In this document: positions 9,273 to 55,525 of the stretch, piece after piece
Layout of the letters: the number at the start of each line of letters is the position of its first letter
How positions within the stretch are numbered: the stretch's first letter is position 1
Assembly (NCBI GenBank): GCA_964608145.1
Contig: CAZSMD010000001.1
Location: 1-57,318, forward strand
DNA: 57,318 bases
Direction: 5' to 3'
DNA from: an uncultured Candidatus Saccharibacteria bacterium
GTDB taxonomy: Bacteria > Patescibacteriota > Minisyncoccia > Phycocordibacterales > EsbW-18
Notes under the pieces: generated by a model
Told to the model about the DNA's origin: nothing
What the model saw: the letters and a program-made list of their open reading frames with translations, nothing else
The model's database searches: none
Program-made: the position numbers and the translations under genes

Positions 9273-9560
9273 CTACCCTCCGTGAACCTGGGCGAGTTGC
9301 TCCGGGGAGGCCTTCCGAAGACCGACATACTCCACGAGCACGGTTTCGTTGCGTACGGCAAGCACCCGAAAGCGAAGCCGTATGCCGGAAGTAACCCATC
9401 GCTCGCTTCGCCTGTCGAGGACGTGTCTGACGCCGTTGACAAACGCGCGGAACTGCCACCCGTGCTTCTTGTCGAAACACCACGTGAAGGCCATTTCCAA
9501 CGTCCCGTCATCCAACCGAATAATCTCGGTCGTGTCCTGCCTGCCCGTCAAAGGAATCAT
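9273..9560 (-). CDS. hypothetical protein (95 aa)
   Basis: ORF with AAAGGGG 4-5 nt upstream of the internal ATG (MIPLTGRQDTTEII...). No family recognised. Confidence 0.45.
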   Translation of the reverse strand: MIPLTGRQDTTEIIRLDDGTLEMAFTWCFDKKHGWQFRAFVNGVRHVLDRRSERWVTSGIRLRFRVLAVRNETVLVEYVGLRKASPEQLAQVHGG

Positions 9561-9679
9561 ACAACCCCTTTCAGAGACGCCTCGTGCGTATAGAAAACCC
9601 AAAGAATTCTGAAAATATTATATCTTGGTAATTAAATAGAGTCAACCTGCACCGCGGCAATACAAAAAGTGGTACACTG

Positions 9680-15365: not shown

Positions 15366-15899
15366 TCACAGGACCGGGTCAAGAATGCGTTGGTTTCGAC
15401 TGCCGAAGTAGTAGAAAGCCTCTGACTTCTGCATCGCCCACCGGCAGGCCTGCTTGAGACCTTCGTGGTGAGTGAGAATGACGCACTTTTTCGTAAAGAG
15501 CGCGGGCTCGATGGTCATCCATACGGGCGGTTCGAACCCGCCCTTCGCATGCGCGAGCGGTGTCCCGCTGAAAGAAAACGTAGCGTAGAACGAAGCATTC
15601 CGCGCCGGCTGTGTTTCATCGAAATCGAAGAGTCCCCGATTCTCCGATGAAATGAGCCGGCTGTTGAAACCCGACACAAAGAGCACGGGGGTGAGCCCGA
15701 TCGGCGTAACGCCGATTCTTTGCGCAATGACGACTGCGGTCTTTTCGCAGATCGTCCGGTTCCGCCAGACAAGTCCGCCGGGAAGCTGGTACAACGTATC
15801 GTCAAACCGCCTCACGAAGAGTACTTGCGGCTTTCTTTCATGCTCCCGGAATATTGCTATTCCTACGAATTCCTCAGGCGTGGAGTTTTTGAAGAGCAC
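15366..15899 (-). CDS. Nudix-fold-like protein with degenerate Nudix box
   Basis: LPGGLVWRNRTICEKTAVVIAQRIGV keeps the G/U scaffold of GX5EX7REUXEEXGU but lacks the catalytic R/E residues. Confidence 0.5.
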   Translation of the reverse strand: MLFKNSTPEEFVGIAIFREHERKPQVLFVRRFDDTLYQLPGGLVWRNRTICEKTAVVIAQRIGVTPIGLTPVLFVSGFNSRLISSENRGLFDFDETQPARNASFYATFSFSGTPLAHAKGGFEPPVWMTIEPALFTKKCVILTHHEGLKQACRWAMQKSEAFYYFGSRNQRILDPVL

Positions 15900-15979
15900 A
15901 CCTGCCTCCGAAATCGAAAACGACCCTTTCGGTCGCTATGGTCTGAATGCAATATATCAGAAATACAGACGTGTGTCAA

Positions 15980-22389: not shown

Positions 22390-22434
22390 AATCCCCGCGG
22401 GGTTACGAGCGTGAGCCCGAACCCCGCGGGGATT
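22390..22434. terminator. 15-bp hairpin between convergent thrS and the secreted-protein gene
   Basis: AATCCCCGCGGGGTT / AACCCCGCGGGGATT with a 15-nt loop. A-tract upstream gives a U-tract on the minus strand. Confidence 0.6.
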
Positions 22435-22449
22435 GTCGTTCCGAATCTT

Positions 22450-23304
22450 CTACTGAGTCGGCCAGACGGGCATCATGCCCTTCCGTTCCGGAATCACGCG
22501 TCCGGGTGTGAAGAGCGACTCCGTCGTCACCTCATCAGTCCACCGCGACGTGTCCTCGGTCTCGAAGTCGTCCGAGAAGATGTTCGGACTCCAGAGGAGA
22601 ACCGTCGCCGTCCCGCTGTTCTCGTATCCGCCGACCGAGTACCCGCCCGAGATGATGATGTTCTCATCCCAGATGTAATCCGCGGTCTCGTCGAGTGCGG
22701 CTTGGTCGGGAGTTGTTCCTCCGGGCCAGTACGCATTCCCGACACCGACATAGAAGAGTGCATCGAGTGCCGTCGTATCGGGCTCACCAGAATCGTAGAT
22801 GGTGTCATCCCCGCCACCGAGTACCCGATCATCGCCGTAATCGACGCCAACCCGAGACGTACCGTTGAGGGAGGTCCCGGAGAGATCGCCGATGTAGTTA
22901 AGTTCGCCATCCGAACTCAGGATAGAAAACTGCACGTCAGCGAGCGTGAAGCGCTCGACTCCATCGCCAAGGGCGACGAGAGCGAAATGCAGGCGGTTGC
23001 CGTACTCGCCGGCAAACGGCGCCAGCGGTTCTGCAATGCCGCGCCACGAGCTGAAACTCGTGACCATGACATCACCGGGCGTGAAGCGCACAATCTTCTC
23101 GTACGCAGTCGGATCCGTGGTGCGATCGCCGACCGACAGAAGACCGTTCTGGAGCGCTTGCATGACGTTCGCCATGTAGGCACCCCAGCTTGGCGACCCA
23201 AAACCGTTGGGGGCGGAGTGCGCATGGACAGCCACGGTGATTTCGGCAGAGCCGGACGCCGGGAGAGCCAGCAGGATCAAGAAAAACACCAAGAGACTCT
23301 TCAT
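22450..23304 (-). CDS. hypothetical secreted protein (284 aa)
   Basis: AGGAGA RBS, signal peptide MKSLLVFFLILLALPASGSA, acidic Gly/Asp-rich body, C-terminal FSDDFETEDTSRW motif. Confidence 0.7.
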   Translation of the reverse strand: MKSLLVFFLILLALPASGSAEITVAVHAHSAPNGFGSPSWGAYMANVMQALQNGLLSVGDRTTDPTAYEKIVRFTPGDVMVTSFSSWRGIAEPLAPFAGEYGNRLHFALVALGDGVERFTLADVQFSILSSDGELNYIGDLSGTSLNGTSRVGVDYGDDRVLGGGDDTIYDSGEPDTTALDALFYVGVGNAYWPGGTTPDQAALDETADYIWDENIIISGGYSVGGYENSGTATVLLWSPNIFSDDFETEDTSRWTDEVTTESLFTPGRVIPERKGMMPVWPTQ

Positions 23305-23386
23305 ACCTGATTCTCCTATGGGTACTGCAGTGAACAAAAAAGAGGCACAGCGCCTCATTCAACTGAAACTACTCTACACTGTTATT

Positions 23387-27174: not shown

Positions 27175-27801
27175 ATGAAACGATTTCCGGCATACGATGT
27201 ACCTGAGTTTGATGTGTTCAAAAAACTCGACACTCCCGCAAAGGTGCAGGATTTCCTTGAAACCTTCCCCATAAATTTTGAAGCGCACGGAAGCACCTGC
27301 CACTCGCCGCTCTATGTCCTCCGTCATAAAAAAGCGCAGTGTCTTGAGGGTGCACTGCTTGCCGCCGCAATTTTCTGGTACCACGGCGAGCGCCCGCTTT
27401 TGCTTGACCTTGAGACAACCGACGATGACGATGACCACGTCGTCGCCCTGTTTAAGCAGGACGGCTGTTGGGGCGCCGTAAGCAAAACAAACCATGCTGT
27501 TTTGCGTTATCGAGACCCTGTATTTAAAACCATTCGGGAACTCGTGCTGTCATATTTCAGTGAATATTTTCTTGACGACGGCAGAAAGACGCTCCGCCGG
27601 TATTCAGAACCATTTGACATGCTTCAGTTTGAAGATGCCTGGCTGACATCGCGCCGGCACATGTGGAACATTGAGGACGAAATCATCAAATCTCCGCACA
27701 AAAAAATCCTCACGCCGCGGCAGATTCGCAGACTGCGTCCCGCCGATCCGATTGAGAGCGCCGCAGGAAAACTTGTCGCGTGGAAGAAGAAAGAAAAATA
27801 G
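27175..27801 (+). CDS. transglutaminase-like cysteine-protease-fold protein
   Basis: Candidate Cys-His-Asp triad context: KAQCLEGALLAAA, DDHVVALF, WGAVSKTNH. Confidence 0.6.
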   Translation: MKRFPAYDVPEFDVFKKLDTPAKVQDFLETFPINFEAHGSTCHSPLYVLRHKKAQCLEGALLAAAIFWYHGERPLLLDLETTDDDDDHVVALFKQDGCWGAVSKTNHAVLRYRDPVFKTIRELVLSYFSEYFLDDGRKTLRRYSEPFDMLQFEDAWLTSRRHMWNIEDEIIKSPHKKILTPRQIRRLRPADPIESAAGKLVAWKKKEK

Positions 27802-27806
27802 TGCTG

Positions 27807-27881
27807 TGACCTCATCGGGATTTGAACCCGAGTTTGCGCCGTGAGAGGGCGCCGTCCTGGACCAGGCTAGACGATGAGGCC
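27807..27881 (-). tRNA. tRNA-Glu (anticodon CUC), no encoded CCA
   Basis: Minus strand GGCCUCAUCGUCUAGCCUGGUCCAGGACGGCGCCCUCUCACGGCGCAAACUCGGGUUCAAAUCCCGAUGAGGUCA. 7-bp acceptor, anticodon stem GCGCC/GGCGC, loop CUCUCAC, T arm UCGGG-UUCAAAU-CCCGA. Confidence 0.93.
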
Positions 27882-43916: not shown

Positions 43917-44147
43917 TTATGAGGCCTCGGAAAGGTCTCGAAGAACTGCGAGAGCAGCTGCGGACCCCGGGACGTAGCACTTGCCCCGGATTTCGATAAT
44001 CTTCTGCTCCCGAATAAGTTTCGGGAGGAGGGTCATCGCCTCGAACCGAAACTTCGAGGGCAGCCGCTTGACCGTCTCGTCACGCTCGAGCGGTCCGAAG
44101 CGCTTGAGCGCACTGTACAGCGCGCTCTCGATTGCGGACTGTCTCAT
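43917..44147 (-). CDS. hypothetical small protein (76 aa), possibly winged-helix
   Basis: AAAGGAGA RBS: MRQSAIESALYSALKRFGPLERDETVKRL...REQKIIEIRGKCYVPG. Confidence 0.5.
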   Translation of the reverse strand: MRQSAIESALYSALKRFGPLERDETVKRLPSKFRFEAMTLLPKLIREQKIIEIRGKCYVPGSAAALAVLRDLSEAS

Positions 44148-44258
44148 CGAATCTCCTTTCTGGCTGCCTAAGCAGCCCAGATGTTCTTTCTATTGTTTAT
44201 TATAACAGATGTATTCTAAAAGTCAATATCCGTTATCCACACCCTCTCTCCCCTGCTC

Positions 44259-51871: not shown

Positions 51872-53581
51872 TTACAGAACTCGAAGTGAAAGCGGGAGTG
51901 CATAAACGCCAAACCCGCGATTTGCCGCATTGCCGATGACGAAGAACGTGGAAGGTACAACTGCACCGAGCTGTGTCGCTCCGCTGTCAGAGAACATGGG
52001 ATAGGTGAGGTTAAGCGTCCCCCACCCTCCTGTTTTTTGTTCAAGTACAACGGGTTCAGAATGTTTCCAGCTGCCGGGGTCATCGCTTATACGGAGCACC
52101 ACCCGCGCCACATTGGAGTCCGGAATGTATTGCTCCTCGAGAGAAAGGTAATACGGTGTGCCGTCAACACGGGCGACACTAAACCATGTTCCTGAATACG
52201 TCGCGTCAAACAGACATGCCGGCTCTGCAACCGTACTGTCATAAAAATCACGGATTGATGCAATCGAATACCCGTTCGGACGAGCCGCCTGAGAGAATGT
52301 TCCGTCTGCTGCAAGCGTCAAGAATTTTGACGGCAGACCGTTGCCTTTGATACTTGCACGAGCTGCGGTAATACATCCCCATCCCCATGACGGACTGATG
52401 CTCGCGTATAGGTAGAAATATGAGTCATCCTTGAAAAGCGTCGGGTGGTACGGGCCGCCGCCGTTTTCCGCATACGAACGATGGTTCCAGAGCACCGGGC
52501 CAATATCGTGCGGCGTTTCGCCGTTGAGAAAATCATTCTTCTCCCACCAGACAATATTTGCGAACGAAGCAAACTGCGTCCAACAGTTCTGCCAGACACC
52601 ATTTGCGTCATACCCGGCAACGCAATCCGAATCAACATCCTCTTTAACCGTGTTGAGATACGTCTCCGAGCCGCGGCGGATATTCTGGTTCTCACCGTGG
52701 ACAACGCCGACGACTTTGTCTTTTGAAGAAACCGCCGCAAGAATGCCTCCGTACGAACGCCGCCACGGCGCTTCATCATCGGCGTCATTTTCGTATTGTG
52801 CCTCACCTGTCGCTGAAACCCCTGTCATGAGATCTTCCATAAGCACGGTGTCGCAGTCAGAAAAATAGATGCTCTGGTTGAGGTAGTTCGCCGTCGAACG
52901 ACATACGTTTGAGAATGAGGTTGAGAGCAGGTACGAACGTTCATTGCCGTTCTTGAGGATAACGCGCGGAGGCAGTTCACTCGGATATCCGTATTGCCGG
53001 GCTTCGAGCATGTCGAGCGCCCCCTGCGAAACACATGCGACGACGACGCCGTCTTGAGTCAGCGCTGATTCTCCCGCGGAACAGCCGGCAGTGGTCGTTG
53101 TCGTTGTTGTCCCCGTCGACGGTGGTGTCGTCGTGCCTGCAGGCGGAGTTGTCGGGGGCGTTGTCGGAGGTGTTGTTGGAGGAGTCGTCGGGGGATCTTG
53201 ATCAGTTGGCGGATCCTGGTCGGTTGCCGGAGGTGTTGTCGGCGGCAAAGTTACACCTGGTTTTGTTGTCCCCCAAATATCAATTGTCGGGCGCGAGAAC
53301 GTCGTAACACTTTCCGTTGCAGGAACAACCATGACTGATGTTCTTGAAATCGTTGCCGTAGCCGAGGATGCATTTCGAAAACTGTTTTTGACAATCCGGA
53401 CACCACGCTCAAGCGTTGAAAGAAAATCCTGCACAAAAGCAACCACTGCCGAAGTTTCCGCATCAGCAACGGCAGCACTCACGCGGATTGTCGGTCCGGC
53501 AAAAGAAACCGCCGGAATGCTTGCCAAAAAAATAAAAGCAACCGCGTACTGCGTTGCTGCCCTCATGAATCCTTTTTTCAT
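51872..53581 (-). CDS. large secreted protein: signal peptide, ~130-aa N-domain, Pro/Thr-rich linker, ~400-aa C-terminal domain of unknown function
   Basis: MKKGFMRAATQYAVAFIFLASIPAVSFA signal peptide. Linker PPTTPPATDQDPPTDQDPPTTPPTTPPTTPPTTPPAGTTTPPSTGTTTTTTTAG. Start trimmed to M71. Confidence 0.7.
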   Translation of the reverse strand: MKKGFMRAATQYAVAFIFLASIPAVSFAGPTIRVSAAVADAETSAVVAFVQDFLSTLERGVRIVKNSFRNASSATATISRTSVMVVPATESVTTFSRPTIDIWGTTKPGVTLPPTTPPATDQDPPTDQDPPTTPPTTPPTTPPTTPPAGTTTPPSTGTTTTTTTAGCSAGESALTQDGVVVACVSQGALDMLEARQYGYPSELPPRVILKNGNERSYLLSTSFSNVCRSTANYLNQSIYFSDCDTVLMEDLMTGVSATGEAQYENDADDEAPWRRSYGGILAAVSSKDKVVGVVHGENQNIRRGSETYLNTVKEDVDSDCVAGYDANGVWQNCWTQFASFANIVWWEKNDFLNGETPHDIGPVLWNHRSYAENGGGPYHPTLFKDDSYFYLYASISPSWGWGCITAARASIKGNGLPSKFLTLAADGTFSQAARPNGYSIASIRDFYDSTVAEPACLFDATYSGTWFSVARVDGTPYYLSLEEQYIPDSNVARVVLRISDDPGSWKHSEPVVLEQKTGGWGTLNLTYPMFSDSGATQLGAVVPSTFFVIGNAANRGFGVYALPLSLRVL

Positions 53582-53652
53582 AAAATAGTTACTGCTAGAA
53601 GCACGATGTATATACCCAAGGGTACACCCAAAAAAGAATGCGGCAAAGATTT

Positions 53653-54396
53653 TTATCCGACGAAGTGGGGTTTTTCGCGCGCCGATCGAAGATAGGCCCG
53701 CGCAAAGAGATAGAGACCGACAAAAAATATTACCGCATTGCCCATCTGTACTGCAGAAATCTCCACTGAGGTAATTGACGAGTAGAGCCAAAAATCACGC
53801 TTGTACGAAGCAAGTTGAACAAAGATGTAGAGGAAAGAAACGATGGTCGTCAGAACTCCCGCCAAAGAGAGGAAGAAAACCCCGAGACGCGGAATAATGA
53901 ACCCCTCACACGGGTCATGCACCACTTGCCAGAGCGTATAGAGAAAAAGAATCTTGACAGGAATATAAAAGATAAGATGACTTGCCCAGACCGGCGTATA
54001 AGAAACATCGAAACCGGTGACAAAAAAACTGCATGCAAAGTAGGCCGCTGAGCATCCTAGCCACAGAAAAATAAACCGATAGTAACGTTTTTCCGGCTGC
54101 CGTTTTCTGAAGAAAAGCAAACCCTGCGTAAAAGCAAGAAACGCAATGAAATGAATGATGAGTGTTATAAAAAAGAAGGTGTATAAACCCTGCTGCTCCA
54201 AACCTTGCACGCCCCCATTCAAGAGAACATTTGGAAGTTTAAACCAGAAGAGGAGGCCAAGCCCATACGCCCAGTGCAATAAAAAAATGGGGCGCTCCGA
54301 GCTTCGTAGCCACTGCAATAAAAAAAATGCTCCGCCTGTGACGGACAAGGTTATTGCAAGGAGTGGAAAGAAAAAGTCGATGCTCGTCGCCAGCAT
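53653..54396 (-). CDS. polytopic membrane protein, about 7 predicted TM helices
   Basis: Seven hydrophobic stretches by eye. No Lys in the last helix, so not rhodopsin-like. Confidence 0.6.
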   Translation of the reverse strand: MLATSIDFFFPLLAITLSVTGGAFFLLQWLRSSERPIFLLHWAYGLGLLFWFKLPNVLLNGGVQGLEQQGLYTFFFITLIIHFIAFLAFTQGLLFFRKRQPEKRYYRFIFLWLGCSAAYFACSFFVTGFDVSYTPVWASHLIFYIPVKILFLYTLWQVVHDPCEGFIIPRLGVFFLSLAGVLTTIVSFLYIFVQLASYKRDFWLYSSITSVEISAVQMGNAVIFFVGLYLFARAYLRSAREKPHFVG

Positions 54397-54632
54397 AATT
54401 CAATCATGGGCGCTTCACGATAAAAGACAACCCCTGTTATCAACATAAAAAGATCAGGTACTTTGCCGGCTTCATGGGTCTTTCTGATTTTCAAAGCAAA
54501 ACGCCGCCCGGGTTTCCCCAGACGGCGTGCGTAGTTCTGCATGGTCGCGTGACCAGCCCCATGCTCATCCCAGGAACGATTTGCCGTGATGGTCCGGTTC
54601 AAATCGTTTTGTCCCGGGAAACCGAGATTCAC
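54351..54632 (-). CDS. hypothetical protein (93 aa)
   Basis: GTG start directly after the TAG of a 30-codon upstream mini-ORF. GGGAGGA lies 4 nt upstream. The 3' end overlaps the 7TM gene start by 46 nt. Confidence 0.4.
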   Translation of the reverse strand: MNLGFPGQNDLNRTITANRSWDEHGAGHATMQNYARRLGKPGRRFALKIRKTHEAGKVPDLFMLITGVVFYREAPMIELCWRRASTFSFHSLQ

Positions 54633-54754
54633 CTATCCTCCCGCAACACGTATCAGGTGCATTGGTCGGAATCGGATCGCCTTGTGGGCCTGCTCTCGGC
54701 TGTCGCAGGGAGTTTCCACCTCCATTTCTTTGCCGTAGGTTGTCGGATGCCCCC

Positions 54755-55012
54755 CTAGAAGGAGGAGCTGGCGAGGACGAAGGTCGCGGCCTGTCGCCGC
54801 GGGGTGATGAAGAGCTTCGCCAGGGCCGTCCTGATGCGGACGGGCTTGGCTCCCGTCGGCGCCCTCAGGCACCTGGAGCTGCGCCTTCCGCCCTTCTTCA
54901 GGTCGCAGGCCTCTGCGCAAAGCGCGTCGTAGTTCCGGTGACGCCGGCGTTCCTTCTCCCACCACCGTCGCTGCTTCTCCGCACGACGAGCCTTCTCCTG
55001 GAGCTTGTCCAT
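54755..55012 (-). CDS. hypothetical Arg-rich basic protein (85 aa) with extreme GC3
   Basis: AGGAGG 5 nt upstream of ATG: MDKLQEKARRAEKQRRWWEKERRRHRNYDALCAEACDLKKGGRR... About 74 of 85 third positions are G/C by my count. Consensus promoter upstream. Confidence 0.55.
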   Translation of the reverse strand: MDKLQEKARRAEKQRRWWEKERRRHRNYDALCAEACDLKKGGRRSSRCLRAPTGAKPVRIRTALAKLFITPRRQAATFVLASSSF

Positions 55013-55064
55013 CTCGTCCTCCTGGGCAATGAGGTCTTGAAACCTCGGTTCAGCTTCTGTTCCT

Positions 55065-55092
55065 ATTATAGCACCCCCAACCTATTTGTCAA
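55065..55092 (-). promoter_or_regulatory. consensus sigma70 promoter TTGACA-16-TATAAT
   Basis: Minus strand TTGACA (55087-55092) and TATAAT (55065-55070). Confidence 0.65.
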
Positions 55093-55109
55093 GTCCCCTC
55101 TCCAGAACA

Positions 55110-55137
55110 AGATAACTTGGTTTTTGCCAACTTATCT
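55110..55137. promoter_or_regulatory. palindromic operator candidate just upstream of the -35 box
   Basis: AGATAACTTGG-TTTTTG-CCAACTTATCT. 11-nt arms with one central mismatch. Confidence 0.45.
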
Positions 55138-55157
55138 CAAAATCTCTAGCAATGCTT

Positions 55158-55219
55158 CGCGGAGCAGTGCCAACAGAAAAACACCCCCTTGGGGTGCTTT
55201 TCGTGCTGACTGCTCCGCG
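55158..55219 (-). terminator. nested hairpins: inner intrinsic terminator (55176-55202) enclosed by an 11-bp outer stem
   Basis: The inner hairpin on the minus strand is GAAAAGCACCCC AAG GGGGUGUUUUUC followed by a U-rich tail. The outer stem pairs CGCGGAGCAGT (55158-55168) with ACTGCTCCGCG (55209-55219). Confidence 0.55.
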
Positions 55220-55223
55220 GGTA
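55212..55223 (-). repeat. 12-nt direct copy of the tRNA-Asn 3' end
   Basis: GCTCCGCGGGTA also occurs at 55292-55303, the tRNA acceptor 3' strand. An inverted partial copy lies at 55158-55168. Confidence 0.8.
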
Positions 55224-55256
55224 AATACGTTTTCCCGTGTTCACTTCGGTATAAAT

Positions 55257-55286
55257 AAAAAAGCCCACAAGGGCTCTTTTATTTTT
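55257..55286. terminator. hairpin terminator immediately downstream of tRNA-Asn
   Basis: AAAAAAGCCC ACAA GGGCTCTTTTATTTTT. Confidence 0.65.
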
Positions 55287-55292
55287 CCTCAG

Positions 55293-55364
55293 CTCCGCGG
55301 GTAGGATTCGAACCTACGACCAACTCCTTAACAGGGAGTCGCTCTACCACTGAGCTACCGCGGA
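55293..55364 (-). tRNA. tRNA-Asn (anticodon GUU), no encoded CCA
   Basis: Minus strand UCCGCGGUAGCUCAGUGGUAGAGCGACUCCCUGUUAAGGAGUUGGUCGUAGGUUCGAAUCCUACCCGCGGAG. Anticodon loop CUGUUAA. Confidence 0.93.
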
Positions 55365-55525
55365 ATATTGTGTCGTGGACACATACCACTATTTCGAGGT
55401 GCTCATATCTGAGCTACTACGACAAGCGAGGATGAACGCGAAAGCCGTGCTTTCATGTTCTTCGAGCGCCGTCGGAGAAAGGCCGGCTCTCGCCGGACTT
55501 ACCGCGGAATATTGTGGTGCATCCG
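55365..55525 (-). ncRNA. hairpin-rich ~150-nt leader of tRNA-Asn containing partial copies of the tRNA 5' end and D arm
   Basis: The 17-mer TACCGCGGAATATTGTG occurs at 55356-55372 and 55500-55516. CTGAGCTAC occurs at 55350-55358 and 55409-55417. Hairpins at 55483-55496, 55458-55479, 55434-55460, 55401-55414 and 55370-55382. No ORF. Confidence 0.5.

What the first reader, a model, noticed from the sequence alone, without database searches (positions are those of the whole stretch)
54351..55140. GC3-extreme small basic-protein operon under a consensus promoter and palindromic operator
On the minus strand there is a palindrome (AGATAACTTGG-N6-CCAACTTATCT) about 20 nt upstream of a textbook promoter (TTGACA-16-TATAAT). 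This is followed by AGGAGG-N5-ATG and an 85-aa Arg-rich ORF. By my hand count about 74 of its 85 third positions are G/C, and overall G+C is roughly two-thirds. That is clearly above the neighbouring T-rich 7TM gene. A 30-codon mini-ORF (54633-54725) follows. Its last codons GGA GGA TAG supply the SD for a GTG that abuts the stop (TAGGTG) and opens a 93-aa ORF. This 93-aa ORF overlaps the start of the 7TM gene. None of the three products resembles a family I recognise. The compositional jump next to a tRNA suggests horizontal acquisition. A high-GC donor such as an actinobacterial host would fit an episymbiont lifestyle, but that is speculation. The operator, strong promoter and coupled tiny ORFs look like a tightly regulated module of the TA or regulatory type.
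Basis: partly seen in the sequence, partly recalled or inferred. Interest (0 to 1): 0.65.

Follow-up and report, generated by a model that had tools for sequence, protein, structure and literature searches.

The report
Conserved arginine-rich small gene, extreme GC3
A real, lineage-restricted gene for an 85-residue, very basic protein sits next to tRNA-Asn in a Patescibacteria (CPR) genome; its odd G/C-ending codon usage is an old, maintained trait rather than a sign of recent gene transfer, and the two "coupled" ORFs behind it are probably not genes.

Summary
That includes the palindrome, the 12/12 promoter, AGGAGG-N5-ATG, the 85-aa ORF with 74/85 G/C third positions, the 30-codon ORF and the TAGGTG 93-aa ORF.

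Only the 85-aa ORF holds up as a gene. Homologues of 82 and 85 aa (36-39% identity) occur in two other lineages, also downstream of tRNA-Asn. In the one homologue contig long enough to show it, the VanY and fmt/def neighbourhood is also the same. All three lineages share these features:
- TTGACA-16-TATAAT with TG
- a leader hairpin at the same position
- a strong SD
- GC3 of 0.83-0.87, against 0.50-0.58 in neighbouring genes

Half of the third positions have changed between lineages, yet GC3 is kept. No homologue exists in any high-GC organism searched. The composition is therefore maintained and is not a transfer scar.

The four genes in the window with promoters matching at least 11/12 are all small orphans with high GC3. 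This looks like a codon-usage class linked to strong promoters.

The mini-ORF and the 93-aa ORF are absent from the other lineages, lack coding signal, and the 93-aa ORF runs through a strong terminator. The palindrome is lineage-specific.

The product has net charge +16 and an N-terminal helix, and matches no known family. The most likely function is an abundant RNA-binding protein. Interest is modest.

The parts
55292..55364 (-). tRNA-Asn(GTT), the conserved upstream neighbour of the gene family
   Evidence: ARAGORN and Rfam. The same tRNA 3' end starts contigs L002, L003 and L005.
55212..55223 (-). Second copy of the tRNA 3' end (TACCCGCGGAGC), between the tRNA and the promoter
   Evidence: Exact 12-mer repeat. 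Equivalent copies occur in L003, L004 and L005.
55158..55219 (-). Long hairpin: the tRNA-end copy and its inverted copy enclose a terminator-like stem-loop
   Evidence: -46.6 kcal/mol, z = -7.9; inverted repeat I14.
55110..55137 (.). A/T-rich palindrome (10/11, 6-nt loop), centred about 65 nt upstream of the inferred transcription start. Present only in the window lineage.
55065..55092 (-). Sigma-70-type promoter TTGACA-16-TATAAT with TG. Both hexamers and the TG are identical in all three lineages; the 16-nt spacer differs between them.
55031..55046 (-). Leader hairpin (6 bp, 4-nt loop). A hairpin of 8 bp occupies the same position in L003 and L004, with different inner pairs.
55018..55023 (-). 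Shine-Dalgarno AGGAGG, 5 nt before the ATG
   Evidence: GAGGAG sits at the same place in L003 and L004.
54755..55012 (-). CDS of the 85-aa arginine-rich protein (pI 11.4, net charge +16), GC3 0.87
   Evidence: Homologues P0001, P0002 and P0003. Codon-position substitution pattern and best identity in this frame. GC3.
54529..54754 (-). 3' extension of the transcript. It has no coding signal, is present only in the window lineage, and is moderately structured.
   Evidence: z = -3.2 including the terminator. No Rfam match. No similarity to L003 or L004.
54492..54528 (-). Intrinsic terminator (12-bp stem, GAAA loop, U-tract), the inferred end of the transcription unit
   Evidence: The stem is kept through paired changes in L002.
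54633..54725 (-). 30-codon ORF: exists as an ORF but is not supported as a gene
   Evidence: No SD. Codon score -0.11. Absent from L003 and L004.
54351..54632 (-). 93-aa GTG ORF: exists as an ORF but is not supported as a gene
   Evidence: It crosses the terminator. Codon score -0.10. GC by position is 0.53/0.46/0.51. The C-terminal half is replaced in L002.

Best explanation
This is a single-gene transcription unit, not a three-gene operon. A maximal sigma-70 promoter, a short leader with a stabilising or regulatory hairpin, and a strong SD drive an 82-85-residue protein. The protein is arginine-rich (net charge about +16/+17, pI 11.4-11.7), with a long N-terminal helix and a low-confidence remainder.

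The gene is an old, vertically inherited resident downstream of tRNA-Asn in a small clade of Patescibacteria (Minisyncoccota-like). Its extreme G/C-ending codon usage is a maintained trait, shared in weaker form with the other strong-promoter small genes of this genome. It is not a mark of recent transfer.

Inferred, not shown: the product is made in large amounts and binds nucleic acid. RNA is the most likely ligand, with the protein either ribosome-associated or a chaperone, and possibly binding its own leader hairpin.

In the window lineage the transcript continues for about 250 non-coding nt to a strong terminator.
For: Shown:
- Protein homologues of the same length at 36-39% identity (E = 3.6e-8 with a single sequence, 5e-28 with the profile), with invariant W17, KERRRH, TG-K, LF--PRR-AA.
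- Between L003 and L004, nucleotide identity by codon position is 0.79/0.87/0.68, and amino-acid identity is highest in this frame.
- All three lineages lie downstream of tRNA-Asn. VanY then fmt/def follow downstream in both the window and L004.
- The promoter is 12/12 with TG in all three, with diverged spacers. The leader hairpin sits at the same position with changed inner pairs. The SD is conserved.
- GC3 is 0.87/0.83/0.83 against 0.45-0.65 in neighbours. 41 of 82 third positions differ between the window and L003, 20 of them S<->S.
- Lys is AAG in 23/23 codons, Glu is GAG in 13/15, Phe is TTC in 8/8. Housekeeping genes use AAG 38%, GAG 36%, TTC 39%.
- The four genes with promoters of 11/12 or better are 4 of the 6 highest-GC3 genes out of 53.
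- The terminator at 54528-54501 is kept by paired changes in L002.
- AlphaFold2 predicts a helix at 2-37, with pLDDT about 90 for the first 20 residues.
- Charge and pI.
Against: - The function is inferred from composition only. There is no match to any protein family or solved structure.
- The family is known from only three lineages, all on short contigs, so purifying selection and hairpin covariation rest on very few comparisons.
- Housekeeping genes usually thought to be well expressed (RRF, TypA, MreB) have ordinary GC3 of 0.52-0.56. 'High expression' therefore does not obviously explain the codon bias. No ribosomal-protein genes are in the window for comparison.
- By the genome's own codon table the gene scores -0.06, within the range of non-coding frames.
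- Transcription start, termination and translation are all predicted, not measured.
Confidence: 0.55

Rival explanations
1. Lambda-N-like regulator. The protein is an arginine-rich-motif (ARM) RNA-binding factor that recognises the hairpin in its own leader. It either represses its own translation or lets RNA polymerase read through the terminator behind the gene. It would be a remnant of an element once integrated at tRNA-Asn.
For: - The layout resembles pL-nutL-N-tL1 (from my own knowledge of phage lambda): strong promoter, leader hairpin, small basic protein that is largely low-confidence in the model, then a terminator followed by further genes.
- Residues 9-17 RRAEKQRRW match lambda N 10-18 RRAEKQAQW (7/9, pairwise E = 0.014). 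W17 is invariant in the family.
- Copies of the tRNA 3' end between the tRNA and the gene look like integration scars.
Against: - The RRAEKQ match is not kept in P0002 or P0003, and nothing was found in PDB, PHROGs, phage or viral collections.
- No phage genes lie nearby, and synteny with housekeeping genes is conserved.
- Leader hairpins of the same kind precede unrelated strong-promoter genes in the window, so the hairpin is a generic feature.
- In L003 and L004 the gene after the terminator has a possible extended -10 of its own.
Confidence: 0.12
2. The 3' extension (54529-54754) with its terminator is a regulatory leader (attenuator or unknown riboswitch) for the downstream gene(s). The 93-aa ORF acts as a translated coupling or regulatory ORF rather than encoding a functional protein.
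For: - The extension folds better than shuffles (z = -3.2).
- A 13-nt segment at 54611-54623 is complementary to the 5' half of the terminator (inverted repeat I12), which could form an anti-terminator.
- The GTG ORF stays open through different downstream sequence in both the window and L002. In L002 it ends in an ATGA overlap with the next gene's start.
Against: - No Rfam match even at E = 10.
- There is no comparative data: the extension exists only in near-identical sequences, so nothing can be tested by covariation.
- The SD-to-GTG spacing is only 3-4 nt.
- Open frames of this length are not rare (rough estimate of order 0.01, made post hoc).
- The other lineages lack the element entirely.
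Confidence: 0.1
3. One reading: a module recently acquired from a high-GC donor at a tRNA site.
For: - Composition is a strong outlier.
- The gene is next to tRNA-Asn with att-like repeats.
- Its codon usage is atypical for the genome.
Against: - High GC3 is conserved across three diverged lineages with turnover of third positions.
- Synteny is conserved.
- No homologue was found anywhere outside this clade.
- The gene lies outside, not between, the tRNA-end repeats.
Confidence: 0.06
4. Toxin-antitoxin or tightly repressed three-ORF regulatory module controlled through the palindromic operator.
For: - Small ORFs lie close together behind a strong promoter with a nearby palindrome.
- L003 and L004 also have a second small gene (68-70 aa) downstream.
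Against: - ORFs 2 and 3 are not conserved and lack coding signal.
- In L003 and L004 a strong terminator separates the two genes, and the second gene has no counterpart in the window.
- There are no PADLOC or Pfam TA hits.
- The palindrome is not conserved and sits near -65, not over the core promoter.
Confidence: 0.05
5. The region is a structured non-coding RNA and the 85-codon ORF is accidental.
For: The whole unit folds better than shuffles (z = -3.8). It is G+C-rich and flanked by a promoter and a terminator.
Against: - The CDS alone gives z = -1.6, which is not significant.
- There is no Rfam match.
- Protein-level conservation holds at about 50% nucleotide identity. ORF length, ATG and SD are conserved, and the third position is the most variable.
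Confidence: 0.03

Closest known systems
Arginine-rich-motif (ARM) RNA-binding proteins such as the phage lambda N antiterminator
   Same: It is a small, very basic protein, largely low-confidence in the model, with an N-terminal arginine-rich helix containing a conserved Trp. It is encoded behind a strong promoter and a leader hairpin and is followed by a terminator. There is a local 7/9 match to the lambda N ARM.
   Different: There is no detectable homology, and the local match is not conserved in the family. The gene has a chromosomal, syntenic context without phage genes. The hairpins have 4-nt loops of varying sequence. No boxA-like element has been established.
Small basic bacterial ribosomal proteins (for example bS20, bS21) and lineage-specific ribosome-associated proteins
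   Same: Size of about 85 aa, pI above 11, helical or extended, strong promoter and SD, a leader structure that could serve autogenous control, and vertical inheritance.
   Different: There is no Pfam or NCBIfam ribosomal-protein match at E <= 1. The gene is found in only three lineages of one clade. It is not in a ribosomal-protein operon. Association with ribosomes is untested.
tRNA-linked genomic islands
   Same: The gene is adjacent to a tRNA gene, repeated copies of the tRNA 3' end are present, and composition is atypical.
   Different: The gene lies beyond the last repeat, not between repeats. There is no integrase. The neighbourhood is conserved across lineages, and the composition is maintained rather than decaying towards that of the host.

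Membership tests
Lambda-N-type ARM antiterminators | Sequence or profile similarity to N-family proteins | tested here: not met
   No PHROGs, Pfam or PDB hit. Only a 9-residue local match with E = 0.014.
Lambda-N-type ARM antiterminators | nut site (boxA plus boxB hairpin) in the transcript upstream of terminators | tested here: inconclusive
   A leader hairpin is conserved in position in three lineages. However, similar hairpins precede unrelated genes, and no boxA has been defined.
Lambda-N-type ARM antiterminators | Protein-dependent read-through of terminators | not testable with these tools
   This needs a reporter assay or in vitro transcription.
Type II toxin-antitoxin module | Two conserved, co-transcribed small genes | tested here: not met
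   The second and third ORFs are not conserved and lack coding signal. A terminator separates the genes in L003 and L004.
Type II toxin-antitoxin module | Match to known toxin or antitoxin families | tested here: not met
   Pfam and PADLOC gave no hits.
Recently acquired genomic island at a tRNA | Gene lies between direct repeats of the tRNA 3' end, with integrase or mobility genes | tested here: not met
   The repeats are at 55292-55303 and 55212-55223 and the gene lies outside them. No further exact copy exists in the window (one 11/12 match at 27591-27602, taken as chance), and there is no integrase.
Recently acquired genomic island at a tRNA | Patchy presence and donor-like homologues elsewhere | tested here: not met
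   The locus is syntenic in the window and L004 and tRNA-Asn-linked in all three lineages. No homologues were found outside the clade.
Bacterial ribosomal proteins | Profile match to a ribosomal-protein family | tested here: not met
   Pfam at E <= 1 found none.
Bacterial ribosomal proteins | Physical presence in purified ribosomes | not testable with these tools
   This needs biochemistry or cryo-EM.
Known structured RNA families (Rfam 15) | Covariance-model match | tested here: not met
   Only tRNA passed at the gathering threshold. Nothing credible appeared at E <= 10.

The most novel reading that the evidence does not exclude
The family is a previously undescribed Patescibacteria-specific RNA-binding protein. 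It could be a new ribosome-associated protein, or an ARM-type regulator that binds the hairpin in its own leader. Together with the other strong-promoter small orphans, it would belong to a separate codon-usage class (AAG/GAG/NNC/CGG) whose translation is set apart from housekeeping genes, for example through dedicated tRNAs such as the tRNA-Glu(CUC) in this window.
Probability: 0.15. Interest if true: 0.55.

Novelty: new member of a known kind. Interest (0 to 1): 0.3.

Why it matters
Patescibacteria genomes are full of small orphan genes of unknown role. This one is a clean case. It is evidently under selection for maximal promoter strength and for an unusual codon usage across diverged lineages, so it is probably abundant and functionally important in its clade.

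The link between near-consensus promoters and G/C-ending codons in this genome could help predict highly expressed genes in uncultivated CPR bacteria.

It is also a caution. A sharp compositional jump next to a tRNA is not enough to call horizontal transfer.

Otherwise the finding is an ordinary single-gene unit of unknown function.

Tried and rejected
- **Rfam.** Gathering threshold on the whole window and E <= 10 on 54300-55300 gave only tRNAs. RNase P, tmRNA, 6S and SRP were considered because of the promoter-to-terminator layout and the G+C content, and were rejected.
- **Protein searches.** The first word-index search timed out. The later one found only a 99% identical copy. The full HMMER search added P0002, and the profile search added P0003.
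- **Exact look-ups.** Window ORFs 85, 110 and the 7TM protein are not on record.
- **Collection scans.** GTDB species genomes twice, JGI metagenomes twice (the second with my own DNA pattern for W-x-x-KERRRH, which gave 10 chance hits), and viral contigs twice. None found a relative.
- **Phage and plasmid DNA searches.** Nothing.
- **Family and structure libraries.** PDB, PHROGs, PADLOC, Pfam and NCBIfam gave nothing for the family.
- **Structure prediction.** The AlphaFold2 model (mean pLDDT 61) is too poor, and too close to a single helix, for a meaningful fold search, so none was run.
- **Decayed-copy test.** I tested whether the window's 3' extension is a decayed copy of the 68-70-aa second gene of L003 and L004. 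There is no similarity. It is also not a repeat elsewhere.
- **Overlapping or antisense frames.** I tested whether these explain the GC3. Their amino-acid identity is lower than that of the annotated frame.
- **Literature.** SRA run numbers were not found in the paper library. A search for a Patescibacteria-specific ribosomal protein turned up nothing relevant.
- **Promoter score against GC3.** The overall rank correlation is not significant (rho 0.08). Only the class with promoters of 11/12 or better stands out.
Full report
**1. Observation**

- On the minus strand there is an A/T-rich palindrome at 55137-55110. It has 11-nt arms, 10/11 complementary, and a 6-nt loop. It ends 17 nt before a perfect TTGACA-16-TATAAT promoter with an upstream TG at 55092-55065. 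This is the only 12/12 site in the window.
- AGGAGG-ACGAG-ATG opens an 85-codon ORF at 55012-54755.
- Exactly 74 of 85 third positions are G/C. G+C is 0.674 and GC1/2/3 is 0.59/0.56/0.87.
- The window has 52.6% G+C, and its long ORFs have GC3 of 0.58 +/- 0.04. No other 86-codon frame in the window reaches 0.85.
- The 30-codon ORF (54725-54633), the TAGGTG junction and the 93-aa GTG ORF (54632-54351, overlapping the 7TM start at 54396) exist as ORFs.
- Two independent public assemblies reproduce the region at 99% identity (L001, L002), so it is not a chimera.

**2. Genomic setting**

The window is a complete 57,318-bp NCBI contig carrying ordinary bacterial housekeeping genes. These include DnaE, SMC, RNase R, ThrRS, TypA, two PBPs, LysRS, MurF, ProRS, MreB, RRF, RseP, MraZ/MraW, MnmA and def/fmt. 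The named relatives among the closest ThrRS matches (about 72% identity and below) are labelled Patescibacteria group, Minisyncoccota or Minisyncoccia; the closest matches (75-84%) carry no name.

**3. The 85-aa ORF is a real gene**

A full HMMER scan of 1.8 billion representative proteins found one distant relative. This is P0002, 82 aa, 39% identity over the whole length, E = 3.6e-8. A profile search found a third, P0003, 85 aa, E = 5e-28.

The alignment has no internal gaps. The invariant residues are W17, K20-E-R-R-R-H25, R43-R44, T53-G54, L67-F68 and P71-R-R.

Between L003 and L004, nucleotide identity by codon position is 0.79/0.87/0.68. Amino-acid identity is highest in the annotated frame: 0.74, against 0.56-0.68 in the other five frames. 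This is the pattern expected of a coding sequence. The CDS on its own does not fold better than shuffled sequence (z = -1.6), and nothing matches Rfam.

**4. The locus is old and inherited vertically**
- In all three lineages the gene lies downstream of tRNA-Asn. L002, L003 and L005 begin with the identical tRNA 3' end.
- Downstream, the window has VanY followed by convergent fmt/def. L004 has the same order.
- The core promoter is 12/12 with TG in all three, although the spacers differ.
- The leader starts with ACAGAWGCTRA and carries a hairpin at the same place. It is 6 bp in the window and 8 bp in L003 and L004. The basal GAG/CUC-type pairs are kept and the inner pairs differ.
- A strong SD precedes ATGGA in each.

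**5. The composition is maintained, not a transfer scar**
- The homologues have GC3 of 0.83 and 0.83, whereas their neighbours have 0.45-0.65.
- Between the window and L003, 41 of 82 third positions differ. Of these, 20 are G<->C exchanges.
- The family uses AAG for 23/23 Lys, GAG for 13/15 Glu and TTC for 8/8 Phe. Housekeeping genes of the window prefer AAA (62%), GAA (64%) and TTT (61%).
- No relative exists in GTDB species genomes, JGI metagenomes, viral contigs, phage or plasmid records. No donor can therefore be named.
- The gene also lies outside the pair of tRNA-end repeats rather than between them.

Recent acquisition from a high-GC donor is therefore not supported.

**6. A codon-usage class linked to strong promoters**

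Only four sites in the window match the promoter consensus at 11/12 or better. They are at 55092, 44226, 15979 and 9645, all on the minus strand.

Each is followed by a leader hairpin, a strong SD and a small ORF without family matches (85, 76, 177 and 95 aa). Their GC3 values are 0.87, 0.73, 0.68 and 0.74. These are four of the six highest values among 53 genes. A simple hypergeometric estimate puts this at about 5e-5.

These genes share the AAG/GAG/TTC/CGG preference. The promoter, the leader hairpin and the elevated GC3 are thus a recurrent architecture in this genome, of which the 85-aa gene is the extreme case.

I cannot decide here whether this reflects selection on highly expressed genes or a distinct class of genes. 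RRF, TypA and MreB have ordinary GC3, and the window has no ribosomal-protein genes.

**7. The two downstream ORFs are not supported**
- In L003 and L004 a 12-bp terminator follows the stop codon directly. After it comes an unrelated 68-70-aa gene.
- The window's 250-nt stretch between the stop and its own terminator (54528-54501: 12-bp stem, GAAA loop, U-tract) has no similarity to that gene.
- Codon scores are -0.11 for the 30-codon ORF and -0.10 for the 93-aa ORF. Real genes score 0.1 to 0.47, and wrong-frame ORFs average -0.31 +/- 0.23.
- The 30-codon ORF has no SD.
- The 93-aa ORF has only 3-4 nt between its SD and the GTG. It runs through the terminator. In L002 it continues into entirely different sequence, because the 880-bp block holding the 7TM gene (53613-54492) is replaced there by 54 nt.
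- The terminator stem differs at several positions in L002 but stays paired. This supports its function as the end of the unit.

One weak alternative remains. The extension is structured (z = -3.2). It contains a segment complementary to the terminator's 5' half. The GTG ORF stays open in both downstream contexts and ends in an ATGA overlap with the next gene in L002. An attenuator-like role cannot be excluded, but it cannot be tested without diverged copies.

**8. The palindrome**

It is identical in L001 and L002 but absent from L003 and L004, where the core promoter is nevertheless conserved. Its centre lies about 65 nt upstream of the inferred start and does not overlap the core promoter. 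A single 10/11 palindrome is not statistically compelling. It may bind a lineage-specific factor, but the operator reading is untested.

**9. The protein**
- Net charge is +16/+17 and pI is 11.4-11.7, with 24-25 Arg+Lys in 82-85 residues.
- AlphaFold2, given a three-sequence alignment, predicts a helix at 2-37. pLDDT is about 90 for the first 20 residues, the rest is low confidence, and the mean is 61.5.
- There is no hit in Pfam, PHROGs, PADLOC or PDB.
- Residues 9-17 (RRAEKQRRW) match the lambda N arginine-rich motif at 7 of 9 positions at the same distance from the N-terminus (the lambda N sequence is from my own knowledge). W17 is invariant. The match is not kept in the homologues, so it is a lead and not evidence of membership.

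The most economical reading is an abundant, basic, RNA-binding protein, either ribosome-associated or chaperone-like, possibly acting on its own leader. A lambda-N-like regulator is the more specific rival.

**10. Verdict**

It is mostly wrong on operon structure, horizontal transfer, the operator and the TA nature.

The gene family is new in the sense that it is undescribed. The kind of object, a small basic protein gene with a strong promoter, is ordinary. The maintained extreme GC3 and its link with consensus promoters are the only mildly surprising points.

Noticed in passing
window 55212-55223, 55292-55303, 55356-55372, 55500-55516; L003 1-215; L005 1-300: tRNA-Asn is surrounded by partial copies of itself. 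Its 3'-end 12-mer recurs 80 nt downstream. Its first 9 nt plus 8 nt of leader recur 144 nt upstream. L003 and L005 carry two to three copies of the 3' end plus a T-arm-like fragment. These look like scars of repeated integration and excision at this tRNA.
   Followed up: partly
window 55158-55219: The tRNA-end copy and an exact 11-nt inverted copy of it enclose a terminator-like stem-loop, giving a very stable long hairpin (-46.6 kcal/mol, z = -7.9).
   Followed up: no
window 53613-54492 (7TM gene 53653-54396): The block with the 7TM membrane-protein gene is replaced by 54 unrelated nt in the 98.8% identical contig L002. There the unit is followed directly by the start of the 639-aa secreted-protein gene. 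This is a strain-level presence/absence difference.
   Followed up: partly
window 43917-44226, 15366-15979, 9273-9645 (all minus strand): Three more near-consensus promoters (11/12) are each followed by a leader hairpin, a strong SD and a small orphan ORF (76, 177 and 95 aa). GC3 is 0.68-0.74 with AAG/GAG/TTC/CGG codon preference. This is the same architecture as the gene under study.
   Followed up: partly
L004 1-1000 / L005 200-1220: A His_Phos_1 (phosphoglycerate-mutase-like) gene is inserted between a tRNA-end copy and the promoter of the orf85 homologue. It is flanked by two copies of a roughly 30-nt motif (TTATTTATWACGAAGTGAAC...GAAA) that occurs once, right after the tRNA terminator, in the window.
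   Followed up: no
window 54746-54751 vs L002: The G-run right after the orf85 stop codon has 6 G in the window and L001 and 7 G in L002. In L002 this puts the 30-codon ORF in frame with orf85, behind the TAG. It may be a homopolymer sequencing difference.
   Followed up: no
window 27806-27881: tRNA-Glu with anticodon CTC, a dedicated GAG reader. This is of possible relevance to the GAG-preferring gene class.
   Followed up: no
window 51872-53578 and 22450-23358: Two secreted-looking orphan proteins. One has a long Pro/Thr repeat (PPTTPPTT...). The other (302 aa) has GC3 of 0.72 and a fully open antisense frame (22411-23310).
   Followed up: no
L003 714-926; L004 1441-1647: A conserved 68-70-aa orphan gene (28% identity between the two lineages) follows the terminator of the orf85 homologue. 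It has its own SD and a possible extended -10. It has no counterpart in the window.
   Followed up: partly
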